A stretch of DNA of 64,000 bases from Escherichia coli. Its GTDB lineage: Bacteria; Pseudomonadota; Gammaproteobacteria; Enterobacterales; Enterobacteriaceae. This document shows positions 11,172-35,494 of this stretch, piece after piece (position 1 is the stretch's first letter; each line of letters starts with the position of its first letter). The translations under genes and the position numbers were made by a program. Below the pieces are notes generated by a model that was not told the origin of the DNA, did no database searches, and was given only the letters and a program-made list of their open reading frames with translations. The DNA is taken from NCBI RefSeq assembly GCF_009931435.1, contig NZ_CP043414.1; one strand, given 5' to 3'.

Positions 11172-12089
11172 TTGAACATTAACGCAACACCAGTATTAAT
11201 TACACTTGTCTACGAAGCGCTTTTAAGATCCTTTTGGCGTAAACCCGCACTCAAAAAATTTTTGTTATCGTCGCATATTTCTGAAAGCTTCATTTCAACT
11301 TGGAGAGAAGATGAATCAAAAAGAAATTTTTTAGATCGTTTGTTCCCTAAATTACAAAGTAGTGCAAAAGGAAAAAATGTTATCTGCCATATGGCAGTTA
11401 ATCTTTCTGAACAGACTTCTTTTCCTGATTTAAAAGGCTGGGAAGATTCTCTACAAATGATTCAATCTGCAACTGATGCCATAAAAGATTTAAAAAACTA
11501 TATAACAAAACAAAATGAAGAACATCAGACTGAAAAAGAAAAACAAGAGTTCAGAGCACGAGCAGAAAAAGAGAGAACTGAAATAAAACGCTCTGAGACG
11601 GATTTGATGAAATTAAAGAATGAATTTGAGTGTTTGCATAATGAAATAGGAACTCAAAATGGTGGCTACGCATTTGAAAAGTGGTTTTTTAAACTTGTAG
11701 ACTACTGTGAAATTGTCTGTAAAAAACCATATAAAACTAATGGTAGGCAAGTAGATGGAGCCATAACTATTGAAGGCACTACGTACCTTGTTGAATTAAA
11801 ATTTCAGAAAACACAGGCTGACGCCATCGACATCGACTCATTAAAAGCTAAAGTGAGTAAAATGGCTGATAACACGATGGCTGTAATGATTTCTGTATCA
11901 GGTTATTCCTCTGTTGCCATAACTGAATCATCGGGTAGTCGAACCCCTTTATTATTATTAGATTATAGCCATTTATATTTATTCTTGAGTGGTGGAATGA
12001 GATTTGATGAAATAATTACACGGATAAGACGCCATTCTTCACAAACAGGAGAATCTTACCTATCTGTAAATTCATTTGGTGGATTTTAA
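11172..12089 (+). CDS. Putative nuclease: N-terminal domain plus coiled coil plus C-terminal Mrr-like PD-(D/E)xK restriction-endonuclease fold
   Basis: C-terminal GYAFEKWFF...RQVDGAITIEGTTYLVELKFQK fits the Mrr G-x-x-FE / D / E-x-K pattern; apparent TTG start at 11172 with AGGA 7 nt upstream. Confidence 0.55.
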   Translation: MNINATPVLITLVYEALLRSFWRKPALKKFLLSSHISESFISTWREDESKRNFLDRLFPKLQSSAKGKNVICHMAVNLSEQTSFPDLKGWEDSLQMIQSATDAIKDLKNYITKQNEEHQTEKEKQEFRARAEKERTEIKRSETDLMKLKNEFECLHNEIGTQNGGYAFEKWFFKLVDYCEIVCKKPYKTNGRQVDGAITIEGTTYLVELKFQKTQADAIDIDSLKAKVSKMADNTMAVMISVSGYSSVAITESSGSRTPLLLLDYSHLYLFLSGGMRFDEIITRIRRHSSQTGESYLSVNSFGGF

Positions 12090-12149
12090 ATAAACAATAA
12101 TGCTGTATGAAGTAATCTCAGCATTATTGTTTCCAATAATTAATGTTGG

Positions 12150-12527
12150 TTAATCCATCAAGCCGCGTGAAGTCTTACTTGCAGTATGACGAAAATCATA
12201 ACGTTCCACAACATCACCCTTAAACCAGATATCCAGTGATTTAATATGTGCTGTGCTGCTATTGGTCAACAGAGCAAGGCCCGGTATGTAGTTAGATAGC
12301 TGGCTTTCTCCCGTCATACTTGAGTAGTTCCACATCTCCTGTCCATCATTCGTAGCGCGTGTCTGAGGCTCTCCAAAGGCAGCAAGAATTTCTTGTTGGG
12401 TTGTTTTTCCATTGACGATTTTAACTTTAACCGTCTGATGATTTTCATCAGTTAGGGATTTATTACCATGAACGGTACAGCCACTAAGTGGTAATATGAT
12501 AAAAATAGCAAATAACAATTTTTTCAT
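12150..12527 (-). CDS. Lipoprotein, BamE/SmpA-OmlA-like fold (putative)
   Basis: Lipobox MKKLLFAIFIILPLSGC; GKTTQQEILAAFGEPQ resembles the BamE core motif. Confidence 0.55.
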   Translation of the reverse strand: MKKLLFAIFIILPLSGCTVHGNKSLTDENHQTVKVKIVNGKTTQQEILAAFGEPQTRATNDGQEMWNYSSMTGESQLSNYIPGLALLTNSSTAHIKSLDIWFKGDVVERYDFRHTASKTSRGLMD

Positions 12528-12558
12528 TTTAGTTCCATAAATAGATGATAGATGAGAC

Positions 12559-13032
12559 TCAGAAAACATACTTTTTGAATACCAGCATCCATCGCTCGCA
12601 AAGTTCGTGATTTGAAGTGCTTTTATTTTTTAGGGGAACATTAACTTTCCACATGGGATTTTTAATATCATCGGTTAAAATATTGAGGCCAGACCGTTTA
12701 TTCGCTGAAAGTTGTTCTCTCCAGTTAGCAATAGCCGCATTATTCATACCTCGTAATGTTCCATTGCCGTAAAACTTACCACCCTCTGAAAGCGTGTAAT
12801 TTATTTCCCGGATTTCATCAAAAGTATATGTGCTGTCTTTATCTTTATTGAAAATACGGACAGTATGTTTTTGAGTATCAATTACAATACCTGTCTGCTG
12901 GCATTCATAAGAAAGAATGTCGCCGTCCAGAACTTCCGTAAAGCTGTTGTAGTGCTTTTTCTTCTGTATATCTGCTGCGGTCATGATAATGACGAAGAGC
13001 ACCACTAAAAATACGATACCTGTTGCTTCCAC
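12559..13032 (-). CDS. Membrane-anchored hypothetical protein (N-terminal TM helix)
   Basis: GTG start at 13032 preceded by GGAGGAA RBS gives an N-terminus running straight into a hydrophobic helix (IVFLVVLFVIIMTAA); the ORF track's upstream ATG at 13047 lacks an RBS. Confidence 0.5.
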   Translation of the reverse strand: MEATGIVFLVVLFVIIMTAADIQKKKHYNSFTEVLDGDILSYECQQTGIVIDTQKHTVRIFNKDKDSTYTFDEIREINYTLSEGGKFYGNGTLRGMNNAAIANWREQLSANKRSGLNILTDDIKNPMWKVNVPLKNKSTSNHELCERWMLVFKKYVF

Positions 13033-13166
13033 TCTTACTTCCTCCATGTAAATGAGTTAAAGAGACTGAACCCGCTCACAGAGCTTTGCTTCGTTTTATA
13101 CGTGCTACAGCACCAAACTCATGGCGTCGGTCTCGGCGTTGCAAGGCTATCAGAACTTGAAATTAT

Positions 13167-13392
13167 GATCGATATAAAAGATCGATAATTTGTTATTGAT
13201 AGATAATAACGATTGAAAGCGCGATATCGATCGGTGCTTAATTGTTATTATCGATCGAATATCTATTTATGATAGTTGTAAGCTATCGTGCGGTCGTTTT
13301 TGATCGTTTTAAACGATATGACGAGACGCTAAAAGAATTGAATCCTATCAATTGGTTAAGCGGTGGTTTTGCCATGTGATATCAGCCGGATC
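13167..13392. promoter_or_regulatory. Divergent intergenic region with six GATC (Dam) sites and several short palindromes
   Basis: GATC at 13167, 13180, 13229, 13253, 13302 and 13389 within ~225 bp, between divergently oriented envelope-protein genes. Confidence 0.5.
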
Positions 13393-13464
13393 CCGCAACA
13401 ACTCTAGCCCTGACCGGATTAGGTCAAAAATTTAGGCACTTTGATTATCAGGATGGATAAGCAG

Positions 13465-13995
13465 ATGAAGAAGATTTTACTCGTTGCTGGCGCAGCTCTG
13501 GCACTGGCGGGATGTGGTGAGAAAGGTGAGTTTGAGAAAGCGATTAATGCCAAGATTGGGCAAGACAAATACTGCTTCTCGCTGGATAACAATAACACCA
13601 GCTTCCCTATCCGTCTTGCCAAGCCACTACTTGATTCGACTGGCACAGGGACGAATTCAGTGATCCTCGATGGTTTTATTGAGCAGGGCCTGATGGTTTT
13701 TGAGCAGGGTTATGATTCGAATGTATTAGGGATAACAGAGGAAGGCAAAAAAGCCAAAGTCTGGAGCACAACAGACGGTGCCTGTGTTGGTCGTCGTGCT
13801 GTTGACGATATTAAGGAATGGACTGAGCCGGGCAACGGTAATCAGAAAGTCGTTCGCGTGTCTTATACGTGGAAGCTGGTTGACGTTCCGGGCTGGATTG
13901 ACAAAAAAGCGTTCGCCAACGTCAAAGGAATGAATGAACCTGCTGATGGTGCAATAAATCTCGTTAAAACCAGTAATGGCTGGAGAGCTAACTAA
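13465..13995 (+). CDS. Lipoprotein, hypothetical (176 aa)
   Basis: Signal/lipobox MKKILLVAGAALALAGC. Confidence 0.6.
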   Translation: MKKILLVAGAALALAGCGEKGEFEKAINAKIGQDKYCFSLDNNNTSFPIRLAKPLLDSTGTGTNSVILDGFIEQGLMVFEQGYDSNVLGITEEGKKAKVWSTTDGACVGRRAVDDIKEWTEPGNGNQKVVRVSYTWKLVDVPGWIDKKAFANVKGMNEPADGAINLVKTSNGWRAN

Positions 13996-14087
13996 AAGGA
14001 TGCTGGATCGTTAAATGCCCCTGCTACGCTGTGGAAAGTGACAGAAGGGGCATGAATTGTATTTCATTTAATGTAGTGAATGATATT

Positions 14088-14663
14088 TTATTGTATCGAT
14101 TTGTTAGATACTTTCATCAATTTCTCTTGAATTTTTCTTATTCTTTCAAGTTCTTCAACAATGGGATTTTTCTCGCCTTCACTTTGCATGAAAGGGCTTA
14201 AGTCTATATTGTTTTTTTCAACAACTTCTTTATTCATATAACTGTACGTTGCGGTTATTGTAAATTGTTGTGGTAACGGATTTTTCGATTCTCCAAAAAT
14301 AACCCAACCTTGACCAAGGGCGAAGAATAACTCTTGATTGGGCGCTAAGCTATCAATAGTCGATGTAAAAATACTTGTTTCTTTTAGGTTTTTAGTTGGC
14401 TCATCGAACTGATAAAAATCCTTATCTAATTCTAATTTTACATTCAGGGCTGGTGTCTTACCGCTATTATAAATTTTCAGGTATAGGAATTGCGAGTGAG
14501 GTCTTACCATTGGCTGGATTATTATATAAGGACGAGACATTGCCTCGGTTTGCTCATTCATTATCTGAGCTGTTCGTTCGCTTATTCTCGACATCTTGTA
14601 TGTCAAAAATGCATAAATTCCTGTAATGATAACAAGAATTGCTGTAAGTATTTCCATTGTCAT
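14088..14663 (-). CDS. Single-pass membrane protein, hypothetical (191 aa)
   Basis: AGGAG RBS 6 nt upstream of ATG; N-terminal TM helix ILTAILVIITGIYAFLTY. Confidence 0.6.
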   Translation of the reverse strand: MTMEILTAILVIITGIYAFLTYKMSRISERTAQIMNEQTEAMSRPYIIIQPMVRPHSQFLYLKIYNSGKTPALNVKLELDKDFYQFDEPTKNLKETSIFTSTIDSLAPNQELFFALGQGWVIFGESKNPLPQQFTITATYSYMNKEVVEKNNIDLSPFMQSEGEKNPIVEELERIRKIQEKLMKVSNKSIQ

Positions 14664-14709
14664 GATTAACTCCTAAGTATAATGATTCATACCAGTAAGG
14701 TATAATATT

Positions 14710-15204
14710 TTAACTATTATTGCATTTTTTTCTGTTGAATAGTTGATTATATCCAAGTTCCATTTCTTCAATAAAATCTTCATTAAATGTTGGAAATCCA
14801 CACGCCAGTGGTTCTTTCCCTCGAATTTTGAATAAGTTATAAAGATAACTACTTTCTTTATATGCGACATGAATGGCAGGATATGGCCTATTTTTTATAA
14901 TCTTATTGTTTAGTTCCTTATCATTGATAATGTTATATTGATCCCCCGTTATATCAACTACAATATTATCTATCTCAAGCCAGTAATGGGTTATTTGACT
15001 ATTTTTTCCGGTAGTTGCGCTAACTCCTTTTAGCTCACATTCAGGCCATAGGGTCAGAAAATGGTAAGAAAGAAGCATTGAGGTAAGCTTACAACTCATA
15101 ACAGGAAAACAGTCTATAACAAGACTGGTGTTCTTTTTATCACAACTTTCAATTAATCTACGAAGCTTAACTGCTTCTTCTTTTATTTCGATAATGGTTG
15201 GCAA
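14710..15204 (-). CDS. Hypothetical cytoplasmic protein (164 aa), TTG start
   Basis: AGGGAG RBS 6 nt upstream of TTG 15204; no family recognised; contains one R-x5-H (RPYPAIH), a weak HEPN-like hint only. Confidence 0.5.
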   Translation of the reverse strand: MPTIIEIKEEAVKLRRLIESCDKKNTSLVIDCFPVMSCKLTSMLLSYHFLTLWPECELKGVSATTGKNSQITHYWLEIDNIVVDITGDQYNIINDKELNNKIIKNRPYPAIHVAYKESSYLYNLFKIRGKEPLACGFPTFNEDFIEEMELGYNQLFNRKKCNNS

Positions 15205-15282
15205 GATCAGCTCCCTAACTACATGATGTGCCGAGCATTTAATATATACGATACATAGGTCATTAAAAAGTATGTTCTAAAT

Positions 15283-16764
15283 TTAGTGTTTCTTATGGCT
15301 CGGTGGACTCAGTTTTGGCGCGCTTCCTTGCCTCATGTGTTCTGGTGGCATTGAAGGTGTGAGATTTATGCTTCTATTAACTTCCGGCTGTTCCTGATTA
15401 GGACGGCTTGGTAAACGTTTGATTTCATCAGGTGTTAATTTATAGTCACCATTGTTAAATTTGGTACGTTTTTCAAACTCCGAGCGTGGAACATTGACAC
15501 CCAGCACTTCATCATAGACATAGTTCTCTGCGATACGCTTATCATGGTCAGCATCAATGGTATCGGGTTTCCTTCTGGCCCATACAAATCTCTCTTTGAA
15601 GAAGCCCACCACAAGCAGTGTGAAACGCTTAAACAAACCATTTTGTCGTGGCTTAGTCTGTTTCCTACTTCTCATCGGAGCACGGTTTATCGCTCTGGTG
15701 TTTCGAGAAGAAGGGGTTTCCAGTTTAGTGGATGCAGTTGGTTCAGGAACAATCAGAACGGGAGATTTCTTCCCTGAAATACTTACTTTACTGACCTTAT
15801 TAGGATTACGGTATGATTTTGCTGCTGGTCTTCTGCTTGTAGTTGCTGTTGCCACAATCGGCTGTTGTTCTACTGTTACCGGGTCGTCTGGAAGAACAAT
15901 CTCTTCGGGGTCAGGAAGAATTGTTATCTCAAAGCTTCTGACATCAACAACGATCTCCAGTGGTAGCTCACTGAATGTGGTGTAGACCTTCTTGGCCTCT
16001 TCAATTTGATGATCGCGTTGAGCTTGTTCAACAGATCGCTGTTCCTGAGACTCTTTGTCATTCCATTTAGCACGATGAACACGTTGCATTGCCGGGCGGT
16101 TAGTTTCCGTTGCTTTGGCAAGCCAGAACGCTTTTTCTTCAGCGCTGAATGCTTCTTCTGCCTGAGCAAGGGCATCAGCACATTGAGTTCTGAGAGAACG
16201 GTGATCGATACGTTCTTCACTGCCTGCAGTCTCAAGGTAGCTGTTTGACATCGTGGCCCATGACTCACGCCACTGAACAACCATCTTCTTATCATTCCAG
16301 CTTCTGTCTTTTTTACCGAAGCCTTCGGGACCGATAGTTTTCAGGGTTAACATGACGTGAGCATGGGGATTCTTACCATCTAAATCGTGGAATGCGATAT
16401 CAGCAATCATTCCTTTATCAGCAAAGTTCTTCTGGCAGTATTCGGCAACTAATTTTTTCTTGTCATCATTGCTGAGTTCTACGGGAATAGCGACATCAAA
16501 ATAACGGGCTGTTTGACCATTGTTCTGGCGTTCCACTCTTTCAACTTCATTCCAGAGTGCTGACGAGCTTTCAACAATATGAGCAGGTGCGGAAACAGGG
16601 GCTAATATAATATGACCATGAAGATCTGTTCTGTGGCTGAAATCAAATGTCTCGCCAATGCGATCATCTTTAATACGTGTACGGGCATGGTAGGCAGCTT
16701 TCGCAACAGAAGTCATGCCTTCGCTTCGTTTCACAATTTTAAAATCCAGATGAAAAATCGCCAT
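15283..16764 (-). CDS. mobA: MobA/MobL-family (MOBQ) conjugative relaxase
   Basis: N-terminus MAIFHLDFKIVKRS...AKAAYHAR with candidate catalytic Tyr; three-His motif HDLDGKNPHAHVML (H-x-D-x4-N-x-H-x-H). Confidence 0.85.
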   Translation of the reverse strand: MAIFHLDFKIVKRSEGMTSVAKAAYHARTRIKDDRIGETFDFSHRTDLHGHIILAPVSAPAHIVESSSALWNEVERVERQNNGQTARYFDVAIPVELSNDDKKKLVAEYCQKNFADKGMIADIAFHDLDGKNPHAHVMLTLKTIGPEGFGKKDRSWNDKKMVVQWRESWATMSNSYLETAGSEERIDHRSLRTQCADALAQAEEAFSAEEKAFWLAKATETNRPAMQRVHRAKWNDKESQEQRSVEQAQRDHQIEEAKKVYTTFSELPLEIVVDVRSFEITILPDPEEIVLPDDPVTVEQQPIVATATTSRRPAAKSYRNPNKVSKVSISGKKSPVLIVPEPTASTKLETPSSRNTRAINRAPMRSRKQTKPRQNGLFKRFTLLVVGFFKERFVWARRKPDTIDADHDKRIAENYVYDEVLGVNVPRSEFEKRTKFNNGDYKLTPDEIKRLPSRPNQEQPEVNRSINLTPSMPPEHMRQGSAPKLSPPSHKKH

Positions 16765-17409
16765 TAAAAATATAACCTCAAATAAAAGTAATGCTGTTAG
16801 TTTTTCGTAAGAAAAACTTCGGGGTTGACGTTGACCTTGGTTTTACTTTTAGCCTGCGGCAGCAACCGTCGGTAGACCCCACACACTGCGTAGCAGTGTA
16901 TAGGTGGGCATTGTCTTTAAGAAAATAAGCCAATGTAAAATGCCCCTCTTATTAATTAATACGAAATATATGTATGGTTGTAAAATAATACGCCGGAATA
17001 AGCGGCGCAAACTGGATTAAAGGTGTAGGTTTCACGTCCACAGAACAAAAAGAGTAAAGAAAAGGCCCGTAAGGGCAAAAGAAATATTAATTATTCCCGC
17101 CGTAAGGCGGGATAGCTAAATTTGATGGAAAAAAACCAATAAAACAGAGAGTGTTATGTGTTGCACAATTCACAGGTTGAGATTGGAAAATAGAGTTTAA
17201 AATTGACAGGTGAAAATAAAAGCACAAATGCGCAAAAATAAGTAACGCGGAGAGTGCCAGATGTTTTTGGTTAGTGAATACTATCATATGCGTTGCACAT
17301 ATTTATAAAGAAATGTATCAGAATCATTCTCTCTGACAAAACAGACTAAATTTGACGTTATTTATCTTTGTGATAATTAAAATAAGATATAATAATAGAA
17401 GGAGGTAGT
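16765..17409. other. Candidate oriT region between divergent relaxase and mobC-like genes
   Basis: Hairpin acactgc-gta-gcagtgt at 16883-16899; two GTAA(G)-loop hairpins (gccc-gtaa-gggc, cccgcc-gtaa-ggcggg) at 17064-17108; geometry mirrors RSF1010 mobC-oriT-mobA. Confidence 0.4.
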
Positions 17410-17715
17410 ATGGATAATGAAAGTAAAAGACCAAGAACAGAAAAAACATTAAAGCAAAAGGTTGCTTTTGCTCAGCTTGAACTTAATCGTCTTAAGTCTC
17501 TGGAAAAATCAGAGCGAAAGAAAGTTGAAACAAGACTCAAGATTATACTTGGTGCGGAAGTGGCTAAGGCTATGAATTGTAGTGTCGAACAGGTGGATAA
17601 AGAGCTTGTTATGGGGATTTTGCTTTCAGCATCTGACCTGAATGATATTGAAAAAATAACATATATAAAAGCAGGCAGTAAGTTTCTCGCGCAAATGGAG
17701 GGAAGACAAAAATAA
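17410..17715 (+). CDS. MobC-like relaxase accessory protein (putative)
   Basis: 101-aa charged coiled-coil protein transcribed divergently from the relaxase; assignment is by position and size only. Confidence 0.35.
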   Translation: MDNESKRPRTEKTLKQKVAFAQLELNRLKSLEKSERKKVETRLKIILGAEVAKAMNCSVEQVDKELVMGILLSASDLNDIEKITYIKAGSKFLAQMEGRQK

Positions 17716-20246: not shown

Positions 20247-21998
20247 TTATGAGGTTTGTAATAAAGAGAAGGCGTCATCCAATAGAATTTTCTCGCTATT
20301 GTTTATCTCTTTATTTAATAGAAATGATCTCACTGATTTTGCATTACCGATACAAATTTGTTTCGCTTTTCCTGCGAAATATTTCTTATTTATTTCATTG
20401 ATATCAAAAAGTGGATTGTCATTAATTTCGTTTTTTTTATATTCTGCTACGGTAAATAGCATTTGCTCATTATTACCAGATTCATTTCCTAAGAACTTAA
20501 AAATAAGATCTCTATTTCCAATATCTATATCTTCTTTGAATATAGCATCTAACAAAAATGGAAATTTATGGATTGTTTTTCTTTTATTGATTAATTTAAT
20601 AAAGGAAAAATGATAAGCCATGATTATTTTATGTAATTCAACCCCTTGGAAGGGGAAGGATGTAATGGAATAAAGATTTTGATACCTTGGATTATTAGGT
20701 ATTATTATCTTCAAAGCTTTTGCTTTTTCGCTGAAAATAGTTAAAAATTCCTTGTCAATGTTGTTTCGGAGAGAGTTAATTTGTGAATCTGTGAGTAGGT
20801 TGTCAATTTGGGTGTTAAGGTTTGATATTTTTTCGACATAATTAGCTTCTTTAATTTTAATATCATTTAAAATGGTGATATTTGCACGGTGATTAACCCA
20901 ATGGTCAAAGTCAATATTTTCGATTCTCGATTCTTTTAACACCTCATACTCAAGCTTTATTTTTTCACTATCGTGTTTGATCTTTCTTTCAACAGAATTT
21001 AATGATGACGAAACATTTTTAATTTCTTCAGTTATACGTTCTTTTTCTCGTAACGCATCGTTAATATCTTGAGTATAGATATATAATTGTCTAAGATCGC
21101 CGGGTAGCGTTTGTTCGCATACAGGACATGTGTCAACGCTGGGTTTTTGAAGTTTTAAATTTCGAATAGTTTGTAAAAGTACTTTTTGACGCCCACGTAA
21201 CATACTGAGTTTATTGCATAGTTTTTCATAATTAGCTTCTTCCGTAATCAGATTTTCTGCTAATATGTTGTATTTTTTTAAGTAATCAATTGCTTCCCCT
21301 TTGAATCGAGACTCTAATATCTCAGAGATTTTAAGAGAGCTATCTTTTGTTTTGTATTGAATTAATTGCTCTCTTTCATATTCAATTTGTTGTTTTTCTT
21401 TTTGCAACATATATTTTTGCAATCTGTCCGTACGATCTTTTATGCCTGCGTAGTAATCAAGGTAGTCATATTTGAAGTCTTTATAAAATCTATAATCACC
21501 TATTGATTCTCTTAGATAAACCCAACCAACAGATTGAGATATATAGAATGGCAAGAATGCAGCTTCTATCGGTGCATCAGTAAACTTAGTTTGGTTCTGT
21601 AATGTTAGATTAAAGTCAAATAAGTGGTTAAATAATTTTTTGTATCTTGCATATTCATATGAGTTATTTCCATTAATGCCATCAAACCGTAGGGGGACTC
21701 TATCATCAATGCGAACGACGAGAGTATCATCAAATCGAACAAATACAACCGTATGAGATGATTTTACTTTTATTATTTCACACTCAAGACGAAAGAGTAC
21801 TCTTTCTGTAAGAATGTCGTGCAAATTTTCTTTGGAATCATTAACACCCATTGTGTACAAAATTGATTGCATTAATGTACTTTTCCCTGATGTGTTCCTC
21901 CCGTGAATAATATTGACTGAGTCACCAAAATCAGTGCAAAAAAAACCTTTATTATTCATAGAGTATGCTAAAATGCTTTTCAGAATTAATTTAGACAT
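20247..21998 (-). CDS. SMC/Rad50-like ABC ATPase with coiled coil and CxxC hook (Lamassu LmuB-like)
   Basis: Walker A GRNTSGKST near N-terminus; long heptad-rich middle; CPVCEQ in mid-protein; start ATG 21998 with GAGGAA RBS overlaps upstream stop (ATGTCTAA). Confidence 0.65.
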   Translation of the reverse strand: MSKLILKSILAYSMNNKGFFCTDFGDSVNIIHGRNTSGKSTLMQSILYTMGVNDSKENLHDILTERVLFRLECEIIKVKSSHTVVFVRFDDTLVVRIDDRVPLRFDGINGNNSYEYARYKKLFNHLFDFNLTLQNQTKFTDAPIEAAFLPFYISQSVGWVYLRESIGDYRFYKDFKYDYLDYYAGIKDRTDRLQKYMLQKEKQQIEYEREQLIQYKTKDSSLKISEILESRFKGEAIDYLKKYNILAENLITEEANYEKLCNKLSMLRGRQKVLLQTIRNLKLQKPSVDTCPVCEQTLPGDLRQLYIYTQDINDALREKERITEEIKNVSSSLNSVERKIKHDSEKIKLEYEVLKESRIENIDFDHWVNHRANITILNDIKIKEANYVEKISNLNTQIDNLLTDSQINSLRNNIDKEFLTIFSEKAKALKIIIPNNPRYQNLYSITSFPFQGVELHKIIMAYHFSFIKLINKRKTIHKFPFLLDAIFKEDIDIGNRDLIFKFLGNESGNNEQMLFTVAEYKKNEINDNPLFDINEINKKYFAGKAKQICIGNAKSVRSFLLNKEINNSEKILLDDAFSLLQTS

Positions 21999-23079
21999 AC
22001 ATTCCTCTTGTCTCAACATATGCAGCTATTATCGCAAATGCAATCATGTGTTTTTCTAACCTTGAATTATATGTGTTAATATAAGTTTGATATAATTCAG
22101 TAATACAATCTGCTTCATCTGTATGTTTATAATCTATTTGTGTGTTTTCTGATACAAATTTATAAATCTTTTTGTATTCTACTTGTTGAAAATCTTTAAA
22201 AAAATCGAAACAGTTATCTAATAATTCTTGCGCTCTTCTTTTTATAGGGAGCTTAATTGATAATCCTTTCGCCAATTTATCTGCATGAGAACGCCAAAAG
22301 TTGAAAGCTTTTTTACTTTCTTGGAACATACTGAATGTTGCATCAATTTTTTGTTTGGTCAAACGCTTTGACCTATCTGTAAGTAAAGCATATCCAGCAT
22401 TATTATATGTTAACTCAACATCTTGCAATAAAGCCATTAGAGTTGTTATTACAGCGTCATGATCACTAACCTTACAACCTAGAACCTCAGTAGATAAACC
22501 TGTTAGCGTTCTTCTCCACCCTTTATAAGTTTGAGGAAGGTCAATGAAACTAAATTTTACATTAGAGAGTTGCTTAAAATCTGCAATTTCTCCATCTATT
22601 AGTTTTGATTGAATGTTTTCTTTGATTTCATCATGTAGATCAGAATAATTTTTAGAGATGTTTGTTACTTGTATTTTTTCTACTTTGCATTTTTTACCTT
22701 TTTCTTTCTTACCCTGAAGTATAATATTTCGATTTGTCAAGAAAGATAGAGTGTGTTTGTAATCATCAGATTTGGGGTGTTTATCGTTGATAAGTTCATT
22801 TCCAACAAGCGATATTTTTCCGATGATCTCACAAAATTTTTGATCCGTTTTCCAGTCATCTCTTGATTTTTTAGCTTGATAAGTATCAATGCGACTAATG
22901 TCACCATTTTCATCAACAAAGGCAAAAAGAAAATCTTCATGGTGTTCAACACATATAAAATAATCTAGCAATGGAGAGTTTAGTTTTTCGTAATCATCAA
23001 AAAGAAGGTATACAACACAACAACGTTGGAATGTATATCCTGAGCCTCCCTCAACTCCTGAGTTGACGCTTTCTGACAT
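21991..23079 (-). CDS. Mrr-like PD-(D/E)xK nuclease-domain protein (Lamassu LmuA-like effector, putative)
   Basis: N-terminal GYTFQ ... VEHHEDFLFAFVDENGD ... IDTYQAKK fits the Mrr-type G-x-x-FE / D / (Q/E)-x-K pattern; translationally coupled to the downstream ATPase. Confidence 0.5.
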   Translation of the reverse strand: MSESVNSGVEGGSGYTFQRCCVVYLLFDDYEKLNSPLLDYFICVEHHEDFLFAFVDENGDISRIDTYQAKKSRDDWKTDQKFCEIIGKISLVGNELINDKHPKSDDYKHTLSFLTNRNIILQGKKEKGKKCKVEKIQVTNISKNYSDLHDEIKENIQSKLIDGEIADFKQLSNVKFSFIDLPQTYKGWRRTLTGLSTEVLGCKVSDHDAVITTLMALLQDVELTYNNAGYALLTDRSKRLTKQKIDATFSMFQESKKAFNFWRSHADKLAKGLSIKLPIKRRAQELLDNCFDFFKDFQQVEYKKIYKFVSENTQIDYKHTDEADCITELYQTYINTYNSRLEKHMIAFAIIAAYVETRGMYV

Positions 23080-23624: not shown

Positions 23625-24854
23625 TCAAGCAGCCATAGCCCTATACTTTTGCGCCTTAACGTAATCTCCCCACCATTGCATAAGCACTTCTCGCTCCCCT
23701 AAATATTCAGCTCGATTGTAGGCTGCTATGATTTCAGTGCTTTTGGTATGGGCCAATGCTGCTTCAAGAACTTCTGTTCTGAATTTGCCACTCTCTTCGG
23801 CGGCTGTTCTGGCAATAGAACGCATACCATGAGCTACCAGTTCACCACCCAACCCCATACGAATCAATGCGGCGTTGGCTGTCTGCTCATGCATGTGGGC
23901 CAATGGTGTTTTTATGCTGGGAAATACCCATTCACGATGACCGCTGATAGGCTGCATGTTTTCCAGAATGCGAAGTGCCTCTTTGCTTAATGGCACTTTA
24001 TGAGGCCGTTTCATCTTCATAAACTCTGGTGGGATGTTCCAGATTTTATTCTCTGTATCGATGTCAGCCCAACGAGCACGAACAGCCTCACCGGGGCGAA
24101 CCCATGTCAGCAGTTGCCATTCAATCAGCATACGGGTTTCCAGACGGATGGATGCGTTTGCCAGTGCAATCATAAACCGGGGGATTTCGCTTGGTGGTAA
24201 TGCTGGCATATTTTGTTTTTTGGGCTTACTGAAACGTTGACCAAGGTTGTCGGCTGGGTTGAACTCAATGAGTTCTTCTGTGGCAGCATAGCGAAAAATT
24301 TCATTCAGGCGGGAAATGATGCGACGTAGAGTTTCAAGCACACCCCGTTGTTCAATTGGGTCGAGATGCTGCTTGAGCATTTTGGGGCGGATCTCTTTGA
24401 TAGGGACATCACCCAGAGTGGGAAAGATGTTCCGTTCAAGGCTACGCCAGATGTCTTCTGCATGATCTTGGGATATACCGGAAGTCTTAATCTTTTCATC
24501 CAACCACTTTCTTGCAACAGCCTGTAGCGTGTTTTCAGTCGCATCTTTTAGTGCATTGGCTTTTTCGTTGTTATGGACTTGAGGATCGATACCGTTGGCA
24601 AGTAGGGAGAGATACTCATCCCGCAAAGTTCGTGCCTTAGCCAAGGTAAGGTGAGGGTAGGTTCCAAGACTCATTTTTGTGCGTTTTTTGGTCACTGGCA
24701 CTGAATACCTGAAATACCAGTTTTTCTTCCCTCCTTTTGTGTCTGGCGCTATGCGTAGCAGTAATCCATCTCCATCAAAGAGGTTGATTTCCTTATCGCC
24801 GGGTTTGGTATTTTTGATTTCAGTATCAGTAAGTTTTTTTGCGAGCTTTGCCAT
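23625..24854 (-). CDS. intA: P4-type tyrosine integrase (IntA-like) adjacent to ssrA
   Basis: 409 aa; C-terminal catalytic region ...VAHGMRSIARTA...ALAHT...AAYNRAEY; sits directly downstream of the tmRNA 3' end as in CP4-57. Confidence 0.9.
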   Translation of the reverse strand: MAKLAKKLTDTEIKNTKPGDKEINLFDGDGLLLRIAPDTKGGKKNWYFRYSVPVTKKRTKMSLGTYPHLTLAKARTLRDEYLSLLANGIDPQVHNNEKANALKDATENTLQAVARKWLDEKIKTSGISQDHAEDIWRSLERNIFPTLGDVPIKEIRPKMLKQHLDPIEQRGVLETLRRIISRLNEIFRYAATEELIEFNPADNLGQRFSKPKKQNMPALPPSEIPRFMIALANASIRLETRMLIEWQLLTWVRPGEAVRARWADIDTENKIWNIPPEFMKMKRPHKVPLSKEALRILENMQPISGHREWVFPSIKTPLAHMHEQTANAALIRMGLGGELVAHGMRSIARTAAEESGKFRTEVLEAALAHTKSTEIIAAYNRAEYLGEREVLMQWWGDYVKAQKYRAMAA

Positions 24855-25018
24855 TTGGGACCCTCAAGTTTTGGACCCTTTCCGTTGGGTCCCAAAAAGG
24901 GTGCCATAAGTTGTGGTTCTCAGCAATTCTCCCTGAACTATAGTGAACGTAAAAAAGCCCGCAGAGCTTGTGCTGTGCGGGCTTAGTGAACTTCACTGAA
25001 CGTTAGTGTATCAATATT

Positions 25019-25381
25019 TGGTGGAGCTGGCGGGAGTTGAACCCGCGTCCGAAATTCCTACATCCTCGGTACTACATGCTTAGTCAGTCTTTACATTCGC
25101 TTGCCAGCTGCGGACGGACACGCCACTAACAAACTAGCCTGATTAAGTTTTAACGCTTCAACCCCAGGCAGGGCTTCCACGCGATCTCTTTTGGGTTTGA
25201 CCTCTCTTGATCCCCGTCCTAAGAGCGGAGGCTAGGGAGAGAGGGCTCTAAGCAGGTTATTAAGCTGCTAAAGCGTAGTTTTCGTCGTTTGCGACTATTT
25301 TTTGCGGCTTTTTACGAGGCCAACCGCCCCTCGGCATGCACCTTGGGTTTCGCAAATCCCGTCGAATCCAGAATCAGCCCC
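25019..25381 (-). ncRNA. ssrA: tmRNA (SsrA), 363 nt
   Basis: Reverse complement reads GGGGCUGAUUCUGGAUUCGACGGG ... GCAAACGACGAAAACUACGCUUUAGCAGCUUAA (tag reading frame) ... GGUUCAACUCCCGCCAGCUCCACCA. Confidence 0.97.
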
Positions 25382-27028: not shown

Positions 27029-27370
27029 TTAGTTACCACTCAGCGCAGGTTTGTTATCAATGTTGGTCAACACCCCGCTACTGTTAAAGGTCAGCGTCAG
27101 CGTTTGCTGCGTTACACCTTCATGACCTGGTTGCTGGCGGAAGACATAGAACCAGGTATTCGTACCAAATGGATCGGACATCAGCGGTGTACCCAATGCG
27201 TACGCAACTTGTTGTTGCGTCATGCCAACACGTATTTTGGATACGTCGTTAGCGGTCAGATAGTTCCCCTGGTTGATGTCAGGACGGTAAACCACTCGCT
27301 CCAGAGTGGAACAGCCTGCGGTCAACATCAATAGTACTGCTGCTGCAGCAGTCAGCGTTTTACAGCGCAT
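27029..27370 (-). CDS. bamE: Outer membrane protein assembly factor BamE (SmpA)
   Basis: 113-aa lipoprotein [38 protein letters not shown]... Confidence 0.95.
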
Positions 27371-34600: not shown

Positions 34601-34927
<327 letters not shown>

Positions 34928-34945
34928 TCTGTCACGGTGGTCATG

Positions 34946-35494
34946 ATGAGCAAACAACTCACCGCGCAAGCACCTGTTGATCCCATCGTTTTGGGAAAAA
35001 TGGGTTCGTCTTACGGTATTCGTGGGTGGCTCAGAGTGTTTTCTTCCACCGAAGACGCCGAAAGCATTTTTGACTATCAGCCCTGGTTTATCCAGAAGGC
35101 GGGTCAGTGGCAGCAAGTCCAGCTGGAAAGCTGGAAGCACCACAATCAGGACATGATCATCAAGCTGAAAGGCGTTGACGATCGTGATGCGGCGAACCTG
35201 CTGACGAATTGTGAAATTGTCGTGGATTCATCGCAGCTGCCTCAGCTTGAAGAGGGTGACTACTACTGGAAAGACCTGATGGGCTGCCAGGTAATAACCA
35301 CTGAAGGCTACGATCTCGGTAAAGTCATCGATATGATGGAAACCGGATCTAATGACGTTCTCGTCATTAAGGCAAACCTGAAAGATGCGTTTGGTATCAA
35401 GGAACGTCTCGTACCGTTCCTCGATGGGCAGGTTATCAAGAAAGTCGATCTCACTACTCGTTCAATCGAAGTAGATTGGGATCCTGGTTTTTAA
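34946..35494 (+). CDS. rimM: Ribosome maturation factor RimM
   Basis: Product [35 protein letters not shown]... Confidence 0.95.

What the first reader, a model, noticed from the sequence alone, without database searches (positions are those of the whole stretch)
12150..13995. Divergent envelope-protein genes (TM protein, BamE-like lipoprotein, second lipoprotein) as island cargo
A minus-strand pair (membrane-anchored 157-aa protein with a likely GTG start, and a BamE-like lipoprotein) is divergent from a 176-aa lipoprotein gene. All three are predicted envelope proteins of unknown function and have higher GC than the flanking cassettes, suggesting separate acquisition. Envelope-located cargo on mobile islands often mediates phage or conjugation exclusion.
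Basis: inference. Interest (0 to 1): 0.45.

Follow-up and report, generated by a model that had tools for sequence, protein, structure and literature searches.

The report
Island backbone lipoprotein genes with epigenetic switch
The three genes are real, but they are the already catalogued SEN1984/SEN1983/SEN1982 backbone genes of a ROD21-like mobilisable island rather than separately acquired cargo, and the DNA between them looks like a conserved Dam/OxyR on-off switch that nobody seems to have described.

Summary
The three ORFs exist as described: a 125-aa lipoprotein (12150-12527, -), a 157-aa DUF4755 protein with an N-terminal TM helix and a GTG start (12559-13032, -), and a 176-aa lipoprotein (13465-13995, +). 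All are under purifying selection. They are 94% identical in DNA to SEN1984-SEN1983-SEN1982 of Salmonella Enteritidis island ROD21.

The "separately acquired cargo" reading is not supported. Their GC (0.38-0.47) matches the island backbone (mobQ, pilS/V, integrase: 0.44-0.47). The low-GC flanks are the swappable cassettes. SEN1982-like genes lie within about 9 kb of a MobQ relaxase gene in about 30 of 40 loci from other genera. The DUF4755 gene is a facultative insert, and its domain probably faces the cytoplasm.

Function remains untested. SEN1984-like genes sit directly after cI in lambdoid phages, a position typical of exclusion genes. The SEN1982 domain gives a confident model with no close solved relative.

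The unexpected result is a 202-bp non-coding block (13160-13361), conserved across 21 loci from about 16 genera. It carries five fixed GATC sites and OxyR half-sites (scores 9, 8, 10, 8 of 10) arranged as in the gtr and opvAB phase-variation switches. This suggests bistable expression of these envelope genes.

The parts
12150..12527 (-). SEN1984-family lipoprotein gene. 125 aa, lipobox LSGC, Thr at +2, so predicted outer-membrane sorting. Remote SmpA/OmlA (BamE-like) domain.
   Evidence: ORF and lipobox. Pfam BamE 14.6 bits against a cut-off of 23.2; 7 of 8 family members hit BamE sub-threshold, best 3e-5. 94.4% nt identity to the ROD21 locus. dN/dS about 0.05. 541 homologues in Enterobacterales and on other mobile elements.
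12559..13032 (-). DUF4755 protein gene (SEN1983 orthologue). 157 aa from GTG (alternative ATG at 13047). N-terminal TM helix, with the domain probably cytoplasmic. Lies 31 bp upstream of the SEN1984-like gene on the same strand, so likely one operon.
   Evidence: Pfam PF15947 53 bits against a cut-off of 27. SD GGAGGA before the GTG. Hydropathy. KKK after the TM helix in all TM-bearing homologues, and TM-less homologues in L002/L003/L018. Present in only 6 of the loci that carry a SEN1982-like gene.
13160..13361 (.). Conserved non-coding control block, a putative Dam/OxyR-type epigenetic switch. GATC at 13167, 13180, 13229, 13253 and 13302. OxyR-like half-sites: S0 13168-13182 (7/10), S1 13199-13213 (9/10), S2 13241-13255 (8/10), S3 13272-13286 (10/10), S4 13303-13317 (8/10). 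Predicted rightward promoter: -35 about 13310-13315, -10 13333-13338, TSS about 13345-13353.
   Evidence: 75% mean identity over 21 loci from about 16 genera, against 29% and 49% in its flanks. GATC sites kept in 17-21 of 21 loci. The three best matches to the 37-bp OxyR consensus in 64 kb are all here. It holds the only 10/10 half-site in the window. Same 8-10-8 triad and about 31-32 bp spacing as the validated P22 gtr sites. GATC spacing 49/24-25/49 against 50/23/50 in opvAB (PMC4856963). Best place in the window for alignment with the P22 gtr switch.
13465..13995 (+). SEN1982-family lipoprotein gene. 176 aa, lipobox LAGC, two further conserved Cys. The extracytoplasmic alpha+beta domain has no Pfam family.
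11172..12089 (+). Context: variable cassette at the left boundary of the conserved module. 305-aa protein with a D...ELK motif, possibly a PD-(D/E)xK nuclease. GC 0.34.
   Evidence: Similarity to E. coli islands stops at 12150. The same slot holds SIR2+TIR in E. coli E1. The cassette recurs at 78-89% identity in Serratia (L009) and Cedecea (L024) islands. The motif was read from the translation.
14088..15204 (-). Context: variable cassette on the right. 191-aa DUF8453 protein and a 164-aa protein. GC 0.32-0.34.
   Evidence: Matches 0-2 of 40 loci. Annotation in E. coli E1.
15283..16764 (-). Context: MobQ (MobA/MobL) relaxase gene, the backbone partner of the SEN1982-like gene.
   Evidence: Pfam 184.8 bits. 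Found within about 9 kb (3-6 kb in most) of the SEN1982-like gene in about 30 of 40 loci.

Best explanation
SHOWN. The region holds the orthologues of SEN1984, SEN1983 and SEN1982 of the Salmonella Enteritidis island ROD21. They sit in a ROD21-like mobilisable island: MobQ relaxase, TraD-like protein, PilS/PilV pilin genes and no type IV secretion system. Here the island is inserted next to ssrA. The genes belong to the conserved backbone. The SEN1982-like gene is the constant partner of mobQ. The SEN1984-like gene is its usual divergent neighbour. The DUF4755 gene is an optional insert between them.

INFERRED FROM SEQUENCE. Two products are Lol-sorted lipoproteins that face the periplasm. The DUF4755 protein is anchored in the inner membrane with its domain in the cytoplasm.

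INFERRED, MODERATELY STRONG. The 202-bp block upstream of the SEN1982-like gene is a Dam/OxyR-type epigenetic switch of the gtr/opvAB kind. OxyR would bind alternative pairs among half-sites S2-S3-S4. The outer sites carry GATC, so Dam methylation of one or the other would lock cell lineages ON or OFF. The lipoprotein would then be made in only part of the population. A second, weaker set (S1-S0 with the 13-bp GATC pair) may do the same for the leftward DUF4755/SEN1984 operon.

INFERRED, WEAK (about 0.3). What is switched is an envelope state that protects the resident element's host against incoming phage or DNA at some cost. This is the usual logic of phase-variable envelope loci and of prophage genes placed after cI.
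For: Identity and backbone status:
- 94.4% nt identity over 1849 bp to a S. Enteritidis ROD21 contig with the same gene order.
- ROD21 gene table (PMC3198454).
- 799 of 5426 E. coli genomes carry part of the region and 336 carry the whole trio, including CFT073, Nissle 1917, 536 and E2348/69.
- Homology breakpoints fall at 12150 and about 13165.
- Conservation map over 40 loci from other species.
- GC per gene.
- Lamassu and other cassettes occupy the low-GC segments.

Switch:
- The block is conserved far above flanking DNA, while synonymous sites are saturated.
- 5 GATC in 202 bp against 0.57 expected.
- The OxyR-consensus positions are conserved, while the N positions vary between genera.
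- It holds the only perfect half-site and the three best full-site scores in 64 kb.
- About 8e-6 such A/C/D constellations are expected by chance in the island.
- Scores and spacing match the experimentally validated P22 gtr sites under the same scoring.
- They also match the published opvAB geometry.
- The block ends at the predicted TSS.
- GATC-a is kept in 22 of 22 loci with a SEN1984-like gene on the left, but in 1 of 5 block-bearing loci without one (Fisher p = 3e-4).

Envelope and exclusion context.
Against: - No experiment: methylation state, OxyR binding, transcription start and bistability are all unknown.
- The promoter is only predicted (-35 matches 3 of 6), and the simple promoter scan did not list it.
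- Half-site spacing is 31 bp, not 32.
- The site predicted at the opvAB 'B' position scores only 4-5/10.
- S0 scores only 7/10.
- ATC-N9-GAT/T-N11-A boxes fit LysR-type regulators in general, so the binding protein could be another regulator. GATC conservation could then be a by-product of the repeated GATCGATA box.
- For function: no homology to any known exclusion or defence protein.
- SEN1982-like genes are absent from phages.
- On IncX4 and other plasmids, SEN1982-like genes lie in maintenance regions, separate from the transfer genes.
- A transposon screen instead linked SEN1982 to systemic colonisation of mice (PMC6968874).
Confidence: 0.6

Rival explanations
1. One reading: the three genes are separately acquired, higher-GC cargo of the island that constitutively mediates phage or conjugation exclusion.
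For: GC is higher than the immediate flanks. The products are located in the envelope. SEN1984-like genes occupy prophage exclusion-type positions.
Against: GC equals that of the backbone genes. The trio is syntenic with mobQ across genera, while the flanks vary. The DUF4755 domain is probably cytoplasmic. There is no hit to exclusion or defence families.
Confidence: 0.1
2. The lipoproteins are host-interaction (virulence) factors. For example, they could protect the periplasm or outer membrane against host lysozyme, proteases or complement, as TraT, Bor/Iss, MliC or ecotin do. Phase variation would then serve immune evasion.
For: A transposon screen scored SEN1982 as needed for liver and spleen colonisation, as cited in PMC6968874 and PMC10655114. 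The SEN1982 domain's best structural neighbours are cystatin/latexin-type inhibitors. Carrier strains include many pathogens.
Confidence: 0.2
3. The lipoproteins are accessory parts of the mobilisation machinery. They would interact with the helper plasmid's type IV secretion system or thin pilus (mating-pair stabilisation, or entry exclusion against the helper or sister islands). This would parallel the way SGI1 replaces IncC mating-pore subunits.
For: Tight linkage to mobQ, traD-like and pilS/pilV. Some relatives carry a lone DotA/TraY gene, the known target of IncI entry exclusion, next to the module. SEN1984-like genes lie next to the coupling-protein gene on Burkholderia conjugative plasmids. 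The SGI1 and IncI parallels are from my own knowledge.
Against: No homologue lies inside IncI, IncX or other transfer operons. Plasmid homologues of SEN1982 lie in maintenance regions or between IS elements. SEN1984-like genes also occur in phages, which have no conjugation.
Confidence: 0.15
4. The conserved 202-bp block is not a transcriptional switch but an origin of transfer, a replication origin for the excised circle (the island encodes a RepL-like protein), or a partition site.
For: The block is dense in palindromes and direct repeats, and the ssDNA fold has z = -4.9. GATC clusters also mark replication origins. A RepL-like gene lies at 7754-8311.
Against: A second conserved non-coding block directly abuts mobQ (16765-17250). 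It lies in the relaxase/traD divergent position where Ti-type oriTs lie. The conserved positions of the 202-bp block coincide with the OxyR consensus, and its geometry coincides with gtr and opvAB. The block travels with the SEN1982-like gene or operon, and stays upstream of an extra lipoprotein gene when one is present.
Confidence: 0.1
5. Published suggestions taken literally: SEN1982 is a DNA-binding, PadR-like lipoprotein, and SEN1984 is a BamE paralogue that works in the BAM complex.
For: Phyre2 hits reported in PMC10655114. Weak winged-helix matches of a 30-60 residue sub-domain. Sub-threshold Pfam BamE hits.
Confidence: 0.05

Closest known systems
SEN1982-SEN1983-SEN1984 of ROD21 (S. Enteritidis) and the ROD21-like (EARL) islands of Enterobacteriaceae
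   Same: Same three genes in the same order and orientation, at 94.4% nt identity. They are followed by the same mobQ, traD-like, pilS and pilV backbone. NCBI already names the families 'SEN1982 family lipoprotein', 'SEN1984 family lipoprotein' and 'DUF4755'.
   Different: This island sits at ssrA, between a ypjA-like autotransporter gene and tmRNA. Its integrase is only 33% identical to the tRNA-Asn integrase of an E. coli island that carries the same backbone (L001). SEN1983 is intact here, whereas it is annotated as a pseudogene in the ROD21 reference. The cassettes on both sides differ. The small SEN1981A membrane-protein gene downstream of SEN1982 is missing.
Dam/OxyR phase-variation switches of gtr (phage P22 and Salmonella) and opvAB (Salmonella); also agn43 of E. 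coli
   Same: OxyR half-sites about 31-32 bp apart. A perfect, GATC-free central site is flanked by 8/10 sites that carry GATC. There is a GATC pair 13 bp apart, as in gtr. The four-GATC spacing is 49/24/49 against 50/23/50 in opvAB. The promoter-proximal site overlaps the predicted -35. The controlled genes encode envelope proteins on horizontally acquired DNA.
   Different: There are five GATC sites and at least five half-sites, lying between divergent genes. Single GATCs replace pairs in the right-hand triad. Spacing is 31 bp, not 32. The controlled products are lipoproteins, not O-antigen modifiers. Nothing has been tested experimentally.
BamE (SmpA/OmlA) outer-membrane lipoproteins
   Same: Small lipoprotein of similar length. 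It has a sub-threshold Pfam BamE match and the shared motif TQQxVxxAxGxP. Phyre2 reported a BamE-like fold for SEN1984 (PMC10655114).
   Different: Below the family threshold. It is not the host BamE, which is encoded at 27029-27370. It is carried by islands, phages and plasmids.
Prophage- and plasmid-encoded exclusion lipoproteins (T5 Llp, phi80/N15 Cor, F TraT, RP4 TrbK) and genes at the lambda rex position
   Same: Small lipoproteins encoded by a resident mobile element. SEN1984 homologues lie directly after cI or as tail-region morons. The comparison with the named proteins rests on my own knowledge.
   Different: No sequence similarity beyond the signal peptide; the only PDB 'hit' to T5 Llp covers residues 1-30. 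No phenotype is known.

Membership tests
ROD21-like island backbone | Synteny of SEN1984-SEN1983-SEN1982 with the MobA/MobL relaxase, TraD-like, PilS-like and PilV-like genes | tested here: met
EARL genomic islands sensu Pina-Iturbe 2018 (defined by the excision/integration module) | Integration at a tRNA-Asn gene with the conserved EARL integrase and RDF | tested here: not met
   The only RNA gene ARAGORN finds in the window is tmRNA, at 25019-25381. It lies next to the integrase gene (23625-24854). That integrase is 33% identical to the one beside tRNA-Asn in L001. The definition is taken from PMC6035254.
DUF4755 (PF15947) | Score above the Pfam gathering threshold | tested here: met
   53.1 bits against 27. 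15 of 17 aligned relatives match.
BamE / SmpA_OmlA (PF04355) | Score above the Pfam gathering threshold | tested here: not met
   14.6 bits against 23.2. Relatives reach at best E = 3e-5.
BamE / SmpA_OmlA (PF04355) | Orthology to the host BAM-complex subunit | tested here: not met
   The host bamE at 27029-27370 scores 95.9 bits. BLASTP between the two proteins aligns 12 residues.
BamE / SmpA_OmlA (PF04355) | BamE-like three-dimensional fold | not tested
Only the published Phyre2 result is available (PMC10655114).
Bacterial lipoproteins (both flanking genes) | Signal peptide ending in a lipobox L-[AS]-[GA]-C | tested here: met
   LSGC and LAGC. Pfam LPAM_1 scores 21.5 and 23 bits against a cut-off of 20. 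The Cys is invariant in the alignments.
LptM family (label given by PGAP to the 176-aa protein in some E. coli genomes) | Score above the LptM model thresholds beyond the signal peptide | tested here: not met
   Pfam LptM_cons 14.6 against 27.3. NCBIfam 18.2 against 27.7. Both matches cover residues 1-21 only.
PadR-like winged-helix DNA-binding proteins (published suggestion for SEN1982) | Global fold match to wHTH regulators and a cytoplasmic location | tested here: not met
Dam/OxyR epigenetic switches (gtr, opvAB, agn43) | Two or more OxyR half-sites matching ATAGxTxxxAxCTAT, spaced for tetramer binding | tested here: met
   Scores 9, 8, 10 and 8 of 10, with centres 42, 31 and 31 bp apart. 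Conserved in 21 loci.
Dam/OxyR epigenetic switches (gtr, opvAB, agn43) | GATC sites inside or beside alternative half-sites | tested here: met
   GATC at 13253 lies in S2 and 13302 at S4. 13167/13180 flank S0. S3 has no GATC. The sites are kept in 17-21 of 21 loci.
Dam/OxyR epigenetic switches (gtr, opvAB, agn43) | Promoter-proximal site overlapping the -35 of a mapped promoter | tested here: inconclusive
   The promoter is only predicted (-35 13310-15, -10 13333-38). It was not listed by the consensus scan.
Dam/OxyR epigenetic switches (gtr, opvAB, agn43) | OxyR binding blocked by methylation, lineage-specific methylation patterns, and ON/OFF subpopulations | not testable with these tools
   Needs EMSA, a methylome and single-cell reporters.
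Known exclusion and anti-phage defence proteins | Sequence membership in a described exclusion or defence family | tested here: not met
   None of the three proteins gave a meaningful hit in Pfam, NCBIfam or PADLOC. PDB profile searches of the SEN1984 and DUF4755 families also found nothing meaningful.

The most novel reading that the evidence does not exclude
The intergenic block is a functional, possibly bidirectional, Dam/OxyR switch carried by ROD21-like mobilisable islands across Enterobacterales. Through it, the island imposes heritable ON and OFF envelope states on its host. It would switch a structurally unclassified outer-membrane lipoprotein family (SEN1982) and a BamE-like lipoprotein family (SEN1984) that phages also place after cI. 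This would trade protection against incoming phage or DNA for a cost in the other state.
Probability: 0.2. Interest if true: 0.7.

Novelty: new member of a known kind. Interest (0 to 1): 0.45.

Why it matters
As first stated, the finding is ordinary. These are named, though uncharacterised, backbone genes of a well-known island family, not special cargo.

What could matter is the control region. A switch of the gtr/opvAB type has so far been tied to O-antigen and adhesin genes. This one would be conserved across some 16 genera, including Salmonella, E. coli (CFT073, Nissle 1917, EPEC E2348/69), Klebsiella, Yersinia, Pectobacterium and Dickeya. It would make a mobile-element lipoprotein phase-variable.

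That would give a concrete reason for cell-to-cell and culture-to-culture variability in ROD21 gene expression and virulence read-outs. It would add a widespread locus to the short list of Dam-dependent switches. It would also provide locked-ON and locked-OFF alleles with which the function of two orphan lipoprotein families can finally be tested.

Tried and rejected
- AF2 of the 176-aa protein with 33 close homologues gave pLDDT 57 and was unusable. A 91-sequence alignment built from the profile search fixed this.
- PDB profile searches for the SEN1984 and DUF4755 families gave only signal-peptide or chance hits.
- PADLOC, NCBIfam and Pfam gave nothing functional for the trio.
- No paper mentions DUF4755. 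None links ROD21 or SEN1982 to phase variation.
- Searching for BamE-like superinfection-exclusion lipoproteins found nothing relevant.
- Rfam found no hit in 11900-17500.
- RNA/ssDNA structure reading of the block: strong folding z-score, but the covariation term is only -1, so I rejected it in favour of protein-binding sites.
- oriT reading: the canonical MOBQ nick core AAGTGCGCCCT is absent from the island at 2 mismatches or fewer. The better oriT candidate is the block abutting mobQ.
- Genomic context of the FHA-TM-SEN1982-domain fusions was uninformative: one neighbouring Ser/Thr kinase gene.
- The DUF4755 protein is essentially absent from plasmids, and the SEN1982-like protein is absent from phages.
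Full report
OBSERVATION

- The minus-strand lipoprotein is 125 aa from the ATG at 12527 (MKKLLFAIFIILPLSGC-TVH).
- The minus-strand membrane protein is 157 aa from a GTG at 13032. A GGAGGA lies just upstream and an in-frame ATG five codons further up. RefSeq annotators chose the same 157-aa form in E. coli.
- The plus-strand lipoprotein is 176 aa (MKKILLVAGAALALAGC-GEK).

Hydropathy shows one N-terminal hydrophobic segment in each protein.

Against orthologues in other genera, dN/dS is 0.05-0.09 for the two minus-strand genes and 0.08-0.31 for the plus-strand gene. Synonymous sites are close to saturation. These are real, constrained genes.

GC is 0.40, 0.38 and 0.47, against 0.34 on the left and 0.34/0.32 on the right.

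WHAT IT IS

The window carries a low-GC island from about 5.4 to 24.9 kb. It lies between a ypjA-like autotransporter gene (735-5396) and ssrA (tmRNA 25019-25381). A P4-type integrase gene lies at 23625-24854.

The island encodes:
- a RepL-like protein;
- the three genes of the finding;
- a MobA/MobL (MobQ) relaxase (15283-16764);
- a TraD-like protein;
- PilS-like and PilV-like pilins;
- a Lamassu LmuA/LmuB pair.

This is the gene set of ROD21 of Salmonella Enteritidis and of the ROD21-like islands. In the published ROD21 table, SEN1982 is a 543-bp lipoprotein gene, SEN1983 a 488-bp pseudogene and SEN1984 a 378-bp exported-protein gene, in the same order beside the relaxase gene SEN1980 (PMC3198454).

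A S. Enteritidis contig fetched through the SEN1982 protein shows the same arrangement. It is 94.4% identical to window 12150-13995 over 1849 bp.

Recent RefSeq annotation already uses the names 'SEN1982 family lipoprotein', 'DUF4755 domain-containing protein' and 'SEN1984 family lipoprotein'.

One difference from the islands described as EARL: those are defined by a tRNA-Asn integration module (PMC6035254). This island sits at ssrA. Its integrase is only 33% identical to the tRNA-Asn integrase of an E. coli island with the same backbone (L001).

BACKBONE, NOT CARGO

1. The GC of the trio equals that of the conserved island genes (mobQ 0.45, pilS 0.44, pilV 0.44, integrase 0.47). The low-GC segments are the flanks and the Lamassu pair at 0.30-0.31.

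2. Similarity to E. coli islands begins exactly at 12150 and runs uninterrupted into mobQ. Immediately left of that point, E. coli E1 has SIR2 and TIR genes, ROD21 has a methyltransferase gene, and this window has a 305-aa protein. That protein recurs at 78-89% identity in Serratia and Cedecea islands.

3. I examined 40 loci from 40 other genomes, found through the SEN1982-like protein.
   - A mobQ gene lies within about 9 kb (3-6 kb in most) in about 30 of them.
   - A SEN1984-like gene is the direct divergent neighbour in about 20.
   - The DUF4755 gene lies between them in only four of these 40 loci (plus the window and E. coli L001).
   - The right-hand genes 14088-15204 match in 0-2.

4. 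In E. coli, 799 of 5426 complete genomes hold part of the region and 336 hold the whole trio. In most of the remainder, similarity starts at about 13165. That is, they have the intergenic block and the SEN1982-like gene with other genes to the left.

So the SEN1982-like gene is the constant. The SEN1984-like gene is a frequent partner. DUF4755 is a facultative insert. The neighbours are the exchangeable cassettes.

THE PROTEINS

SEN1984-like (125 aa)
- It has a lipobox and no Asp at +2, so outer-membrane sorting is expected (established Lol rule).
- It is a sub-threshold match to Pfam BamE (14.6 bits against 23.2). Seven of eight family members match at up to 3e-5.
- The host's true bamE is in the same window, at 27029-27370, and scores 95.9 bits. 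The two proteins share only [24 protein letters not shown].
- It is therefore BamE-like at most at fold level, as Phyre2 suggested for SEN1984 (PMC10655114). It is not a BamE.
- The family has 541 close members.
- Distant members (30-38% identity) are on 140 plasmids, mostly Burkholderia conjugative plasmids, where they lie next to the coupling-protein gene. They are also in eight phages.
- In E. coli phage PhiR26_1 the gene follows cI directly. In Salmonella phage S107 it follows cI after two small ORFs. In Klebsiella phage RAH1 and an E. coli phage-plasmid it is a moron just before the tape-measure gene.
- From general knowledge of lambdoid phages, these are positions where genes expressed in the lysogen reside, often exclusion genes such as rex, sieB or HK97 gp15.

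DUF4755 protein (157 aa)
- It scores above the Pfam threshold.
- The N-terminus before the TM helix carries no positive charge, and the helix is followed by KKK or KKR in all TM-bearing homologues.
- Related islands that carry a lone DotA/TraY gene have 113-128-aa homologues without any TM segment.
- The domain is therefore most likely cytoplasmic.
- Sequence searches of Pfam and PDB gave no further clue. It is almost absent from plasmids.

SEN1982-like (176 aa)
- Close homologues (296) are all from Enterobacterales and carry no Pfam domain.
- Besides the lipobox Cys, two Cys are conserved (C37 invariant, C107 nearly so). This fits a periplasmic disulfide.
- A profile search of 1.8 billion representatives found 396 families at E of 1e-3 or better. 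In several, the domain is the C-terminal, extracytoplasmic part of FHA-TM proteins.
- Distant lipoprotein homologues are backbone genes of IncX4 plasmids, next to hns/hha/topB. They also occur on MPF-I Klebsiella plasmids. A 48%-identical copy lies in an IS-flanked three-gene cluster on IncFIB/HI1B plasmids. None is in phages.
- With the deep alignment, AlphaFold gave pLDDT 92.9.
- The published idea of a PadR-like DNA-binding lipoprotein is therefore not supported. The fold is an alpha+beta roll without a close solved relative.
- The experimental notes in the papers read are that SEN1982 is transcribed in LB, and that a transposon screen scored it as needed for systemic colonisation of mice (PMC6968874).

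THE INTERGENIC BLOCK

Conservation
- The 432-bp spacer contains a 202-bp stretch (13160-13361) that is more conserved than anything around it.
- Mean identity is 75% across 21 loci from about 16 genera. The flank to its left is at 29%, and the stretch between it and the ribosome-binding site is at 49%. Meanwhile synonymous sites in the adjacent genes differ at 60-85%.
- Rfam finds nothing.
- The stretch folds well as single-stranded DNA (z = -4.9), but alignment folding shows almost no covariation. The constraint is on sequence, as for protein-binding sites.

GATC sites
- There are five GATC sites (13167, 13180, 13229, 13253, 13302), against 0.57 expected.
- They are kept in 17, 21, 20, 21 and 21 of 21 loci.
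- Their start-to-start spacings are 13, 49, 24 and 49 bp in the window. Across loci the third is 24 or 25 bp.

OxyR sites
- I scanned the whole 64-kb window with the OxyR consensus ATAGxTxxxAxCTAT (quoted in PMC2909390 and PMC4856963).
- The three best 37-bp full-site scores (17, 15 and 14 of 20; next best 13) all lie in this block.
- The only perfect half-site of the window is ATAGTTGTAAGCTAT at 13272.
- Four of the 32 half-sites scoring 8/10 or better are here: 13199 (9), 13241 (8), 13272 (10) and 13303 (8). Their centres are 42, 31 and 31 bp apart.
- Between genera the unspecified positions of these sites vary freely, while the consensus positions stay fixed.

Comparison with known switches
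- Scored the same way, the experimentally validated OxyR(A), (B) and (C) sites of the P22 gtr switch give 8, 10 and 8, with 32-bp spacing. The outer sites are bracketed by GATC pairs 13 bp apart.
- In opvAB the half-sites are 32, 41 and 32 bp apart, and the four GATCs are 50, 23 and 50 bp apart.
- The P22 switch sequence aligns better to this block than to any other place in the window: score 55, next unrelated 36, background 19-25 with sd 4.3.
- The same block, with identical scores, is present in the ROD21 contig.
- It stays upstream of an extra lipoprotein gene when one precedes the SEN1982-like gene.

I therefore read the block as a Dam/OxyR-type epigenetic switch for the SEN1982-like transcription unit.
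- OxyR would bind S2+S3 or S3+S4.
- Methylation of the GATC in the unoccupied outer site would make the state heritable.
- The promoter-proximal site S4 overlaps a predicted weak -35. The -10 is 13333-13338, and the block ends near the predicted start site.

The upstream elements are S1 (9/10) and S0 (7/10, between the 13-bp GATC pair). They align best with the gtr B-C sites in the opposite orientation.

The leftmost GATC is kept in 22 of 22 loci that have a SEN1984-like gene on the left. It is kept in only 1 of 5 block-bearing loci that do not (p = 3e-4). That hints at a second, leftward switch, but those sites are weaker.

I found no paper that connects ROD21 or SEN1982 with phase variation.

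All of this is sequence inference. Another LysR-type regulator could be the binder, and no methylation or expression data were available.

HOW IT MOST LIKELY WORKS

Shown:
- identity with the ROD21 backbone genes;
- linkage to the mobilisation module;
- lipoprotein signals;
- a conserved control block with OxyR-consensus geometry.

Inferred:
- two periplasm-facing outer-membrane lipoproteins and one inner-membrane-anchored cytoplasmic protein are made by the resident island;
- at least the SEN1982-like gene is expressed bistably.

Known Dam-dependent switches control envelope traits that carry a trade-off. SEN1984 relatives sit where prophages keep lysogen-expressed genes. The most likely role is therefore a switchable change of the envelope that protects the host of the element against incoming phage or DNA.

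I give the switch about 0.6 and the exclusion role about 0.3. A host-interaction role (about 0.2) and a role in mobilisation (about 0.15) remain open.

VERDICT

The 'cargo, separately acquired' interpretation is wrong. The exclusion idea is untested but not unreasonable for the SEN1984 family. The genes themselves are already-named members of a known island family. The putative switch between them is the part worth an experiment.

Noticed in passing
window 16765-17250: A second conserved non-coding block lies between mobQ and the traD-like gene and matches 18-30 of 40 loci. It is the better oriT candidate. The arrangement resembles Ti-plasmid traA / oriT / traCD. It contains the hairpin ACACTGC-GTA-GCAGTGT and the sequence GTAAAATGCCCCTC, which resembles the RSF1010 nick core as I recall it from memory.
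   Followed up: partly
window 20247-23079 (-): A Lamassu defence pair: LmuB (590 aa, PADLOC 745 bits) and LmuA (362 aa, 457 bits). GC is 0.30-0.31. It sits between pilV and the integrase gene.
   Followed up: partly
window 11172-12089 (+): A 305-aa protein with a coiled-coil middle and a C-terminal D...ELK motif that looks like a PD-(D/E)xK nuclease. It occupies the variable slot where E. coli E1 has SIR2+TIR (Thoeris-like) genes and ROD21 has a methyltransferase. The same cassette is 78-89% identical in Serratia and Cedecea islands.
   Followed up: partly
window 23625-25381: A ROD21-like backbone is combined with an ssrA-targeting integrase that is only 33% identical to the tRNA-Asn integrase of an E. 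coli island with the same backbone. About 970 E. coli genomes match this integrase-ssrA junction over at least 80% of the query.
   Followed up: partly
L002 1-2338; L003 2668-5325; L018 (E. coli and Enterobacter islands): Related islands carry a lone DotA/TraY-family gene with no other type IV secretion genes in the stretches examined, next to the SEN1982 module. TraY is the target of IncI entry exclusion, so the islands may replace helper subunits. L003 also has the anti-phage gene apeA between the SEN1982 operon and mobQ.
   Followed up: no
P0198, P0224, P0230, P0252, P0254 (metagenome proteins): The SEN1982-like domain also occurs as the extracytoplasmic C-terminus of FHA-TM proteins, one of them next to a Ser/Thr kinase gene. 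This unclassified domain is much wider than the enterobacterial lipoproteins.
   Followed up: partly
L049 6911-7567 (IncX4 plasmid); L050 5803-6444 (MPF-I Klebsiella plasmid); L045 8449-10235: Distant SEN1982-like lipoprotein genes are backbone genes of conjugative plasmids. In IncX4 the gene lies directly after topB-hha-hns. On IncFIB/HI1B plasmids a 48%-identical copy lies in a three-gene cluster with another lipoprotein and a multi-TM protein.
   Followed up: partly
window 27029-27370 (-): The host's genuine bamE lies 14 kb from the island's BamE-like lipoprotein gene, in the usual bamE-ratBA-smpB-ssrA neighbourhood.
   Followed up: yes
window about 34781-35030: This is the only other 202-bp stretch of the window with five GATC sites. 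It lies in core chromosome and was not examined.
   Followed up: no
window 13338-13359: The invariant palindromic element TTGAATCCTATCAATTGGTTAA lies at or just after the predicted transcription start of the SEN1982-like gene. It is not explained by the OxyR model and could be a further operator or a 5'-UTR element.
   Followed up: no
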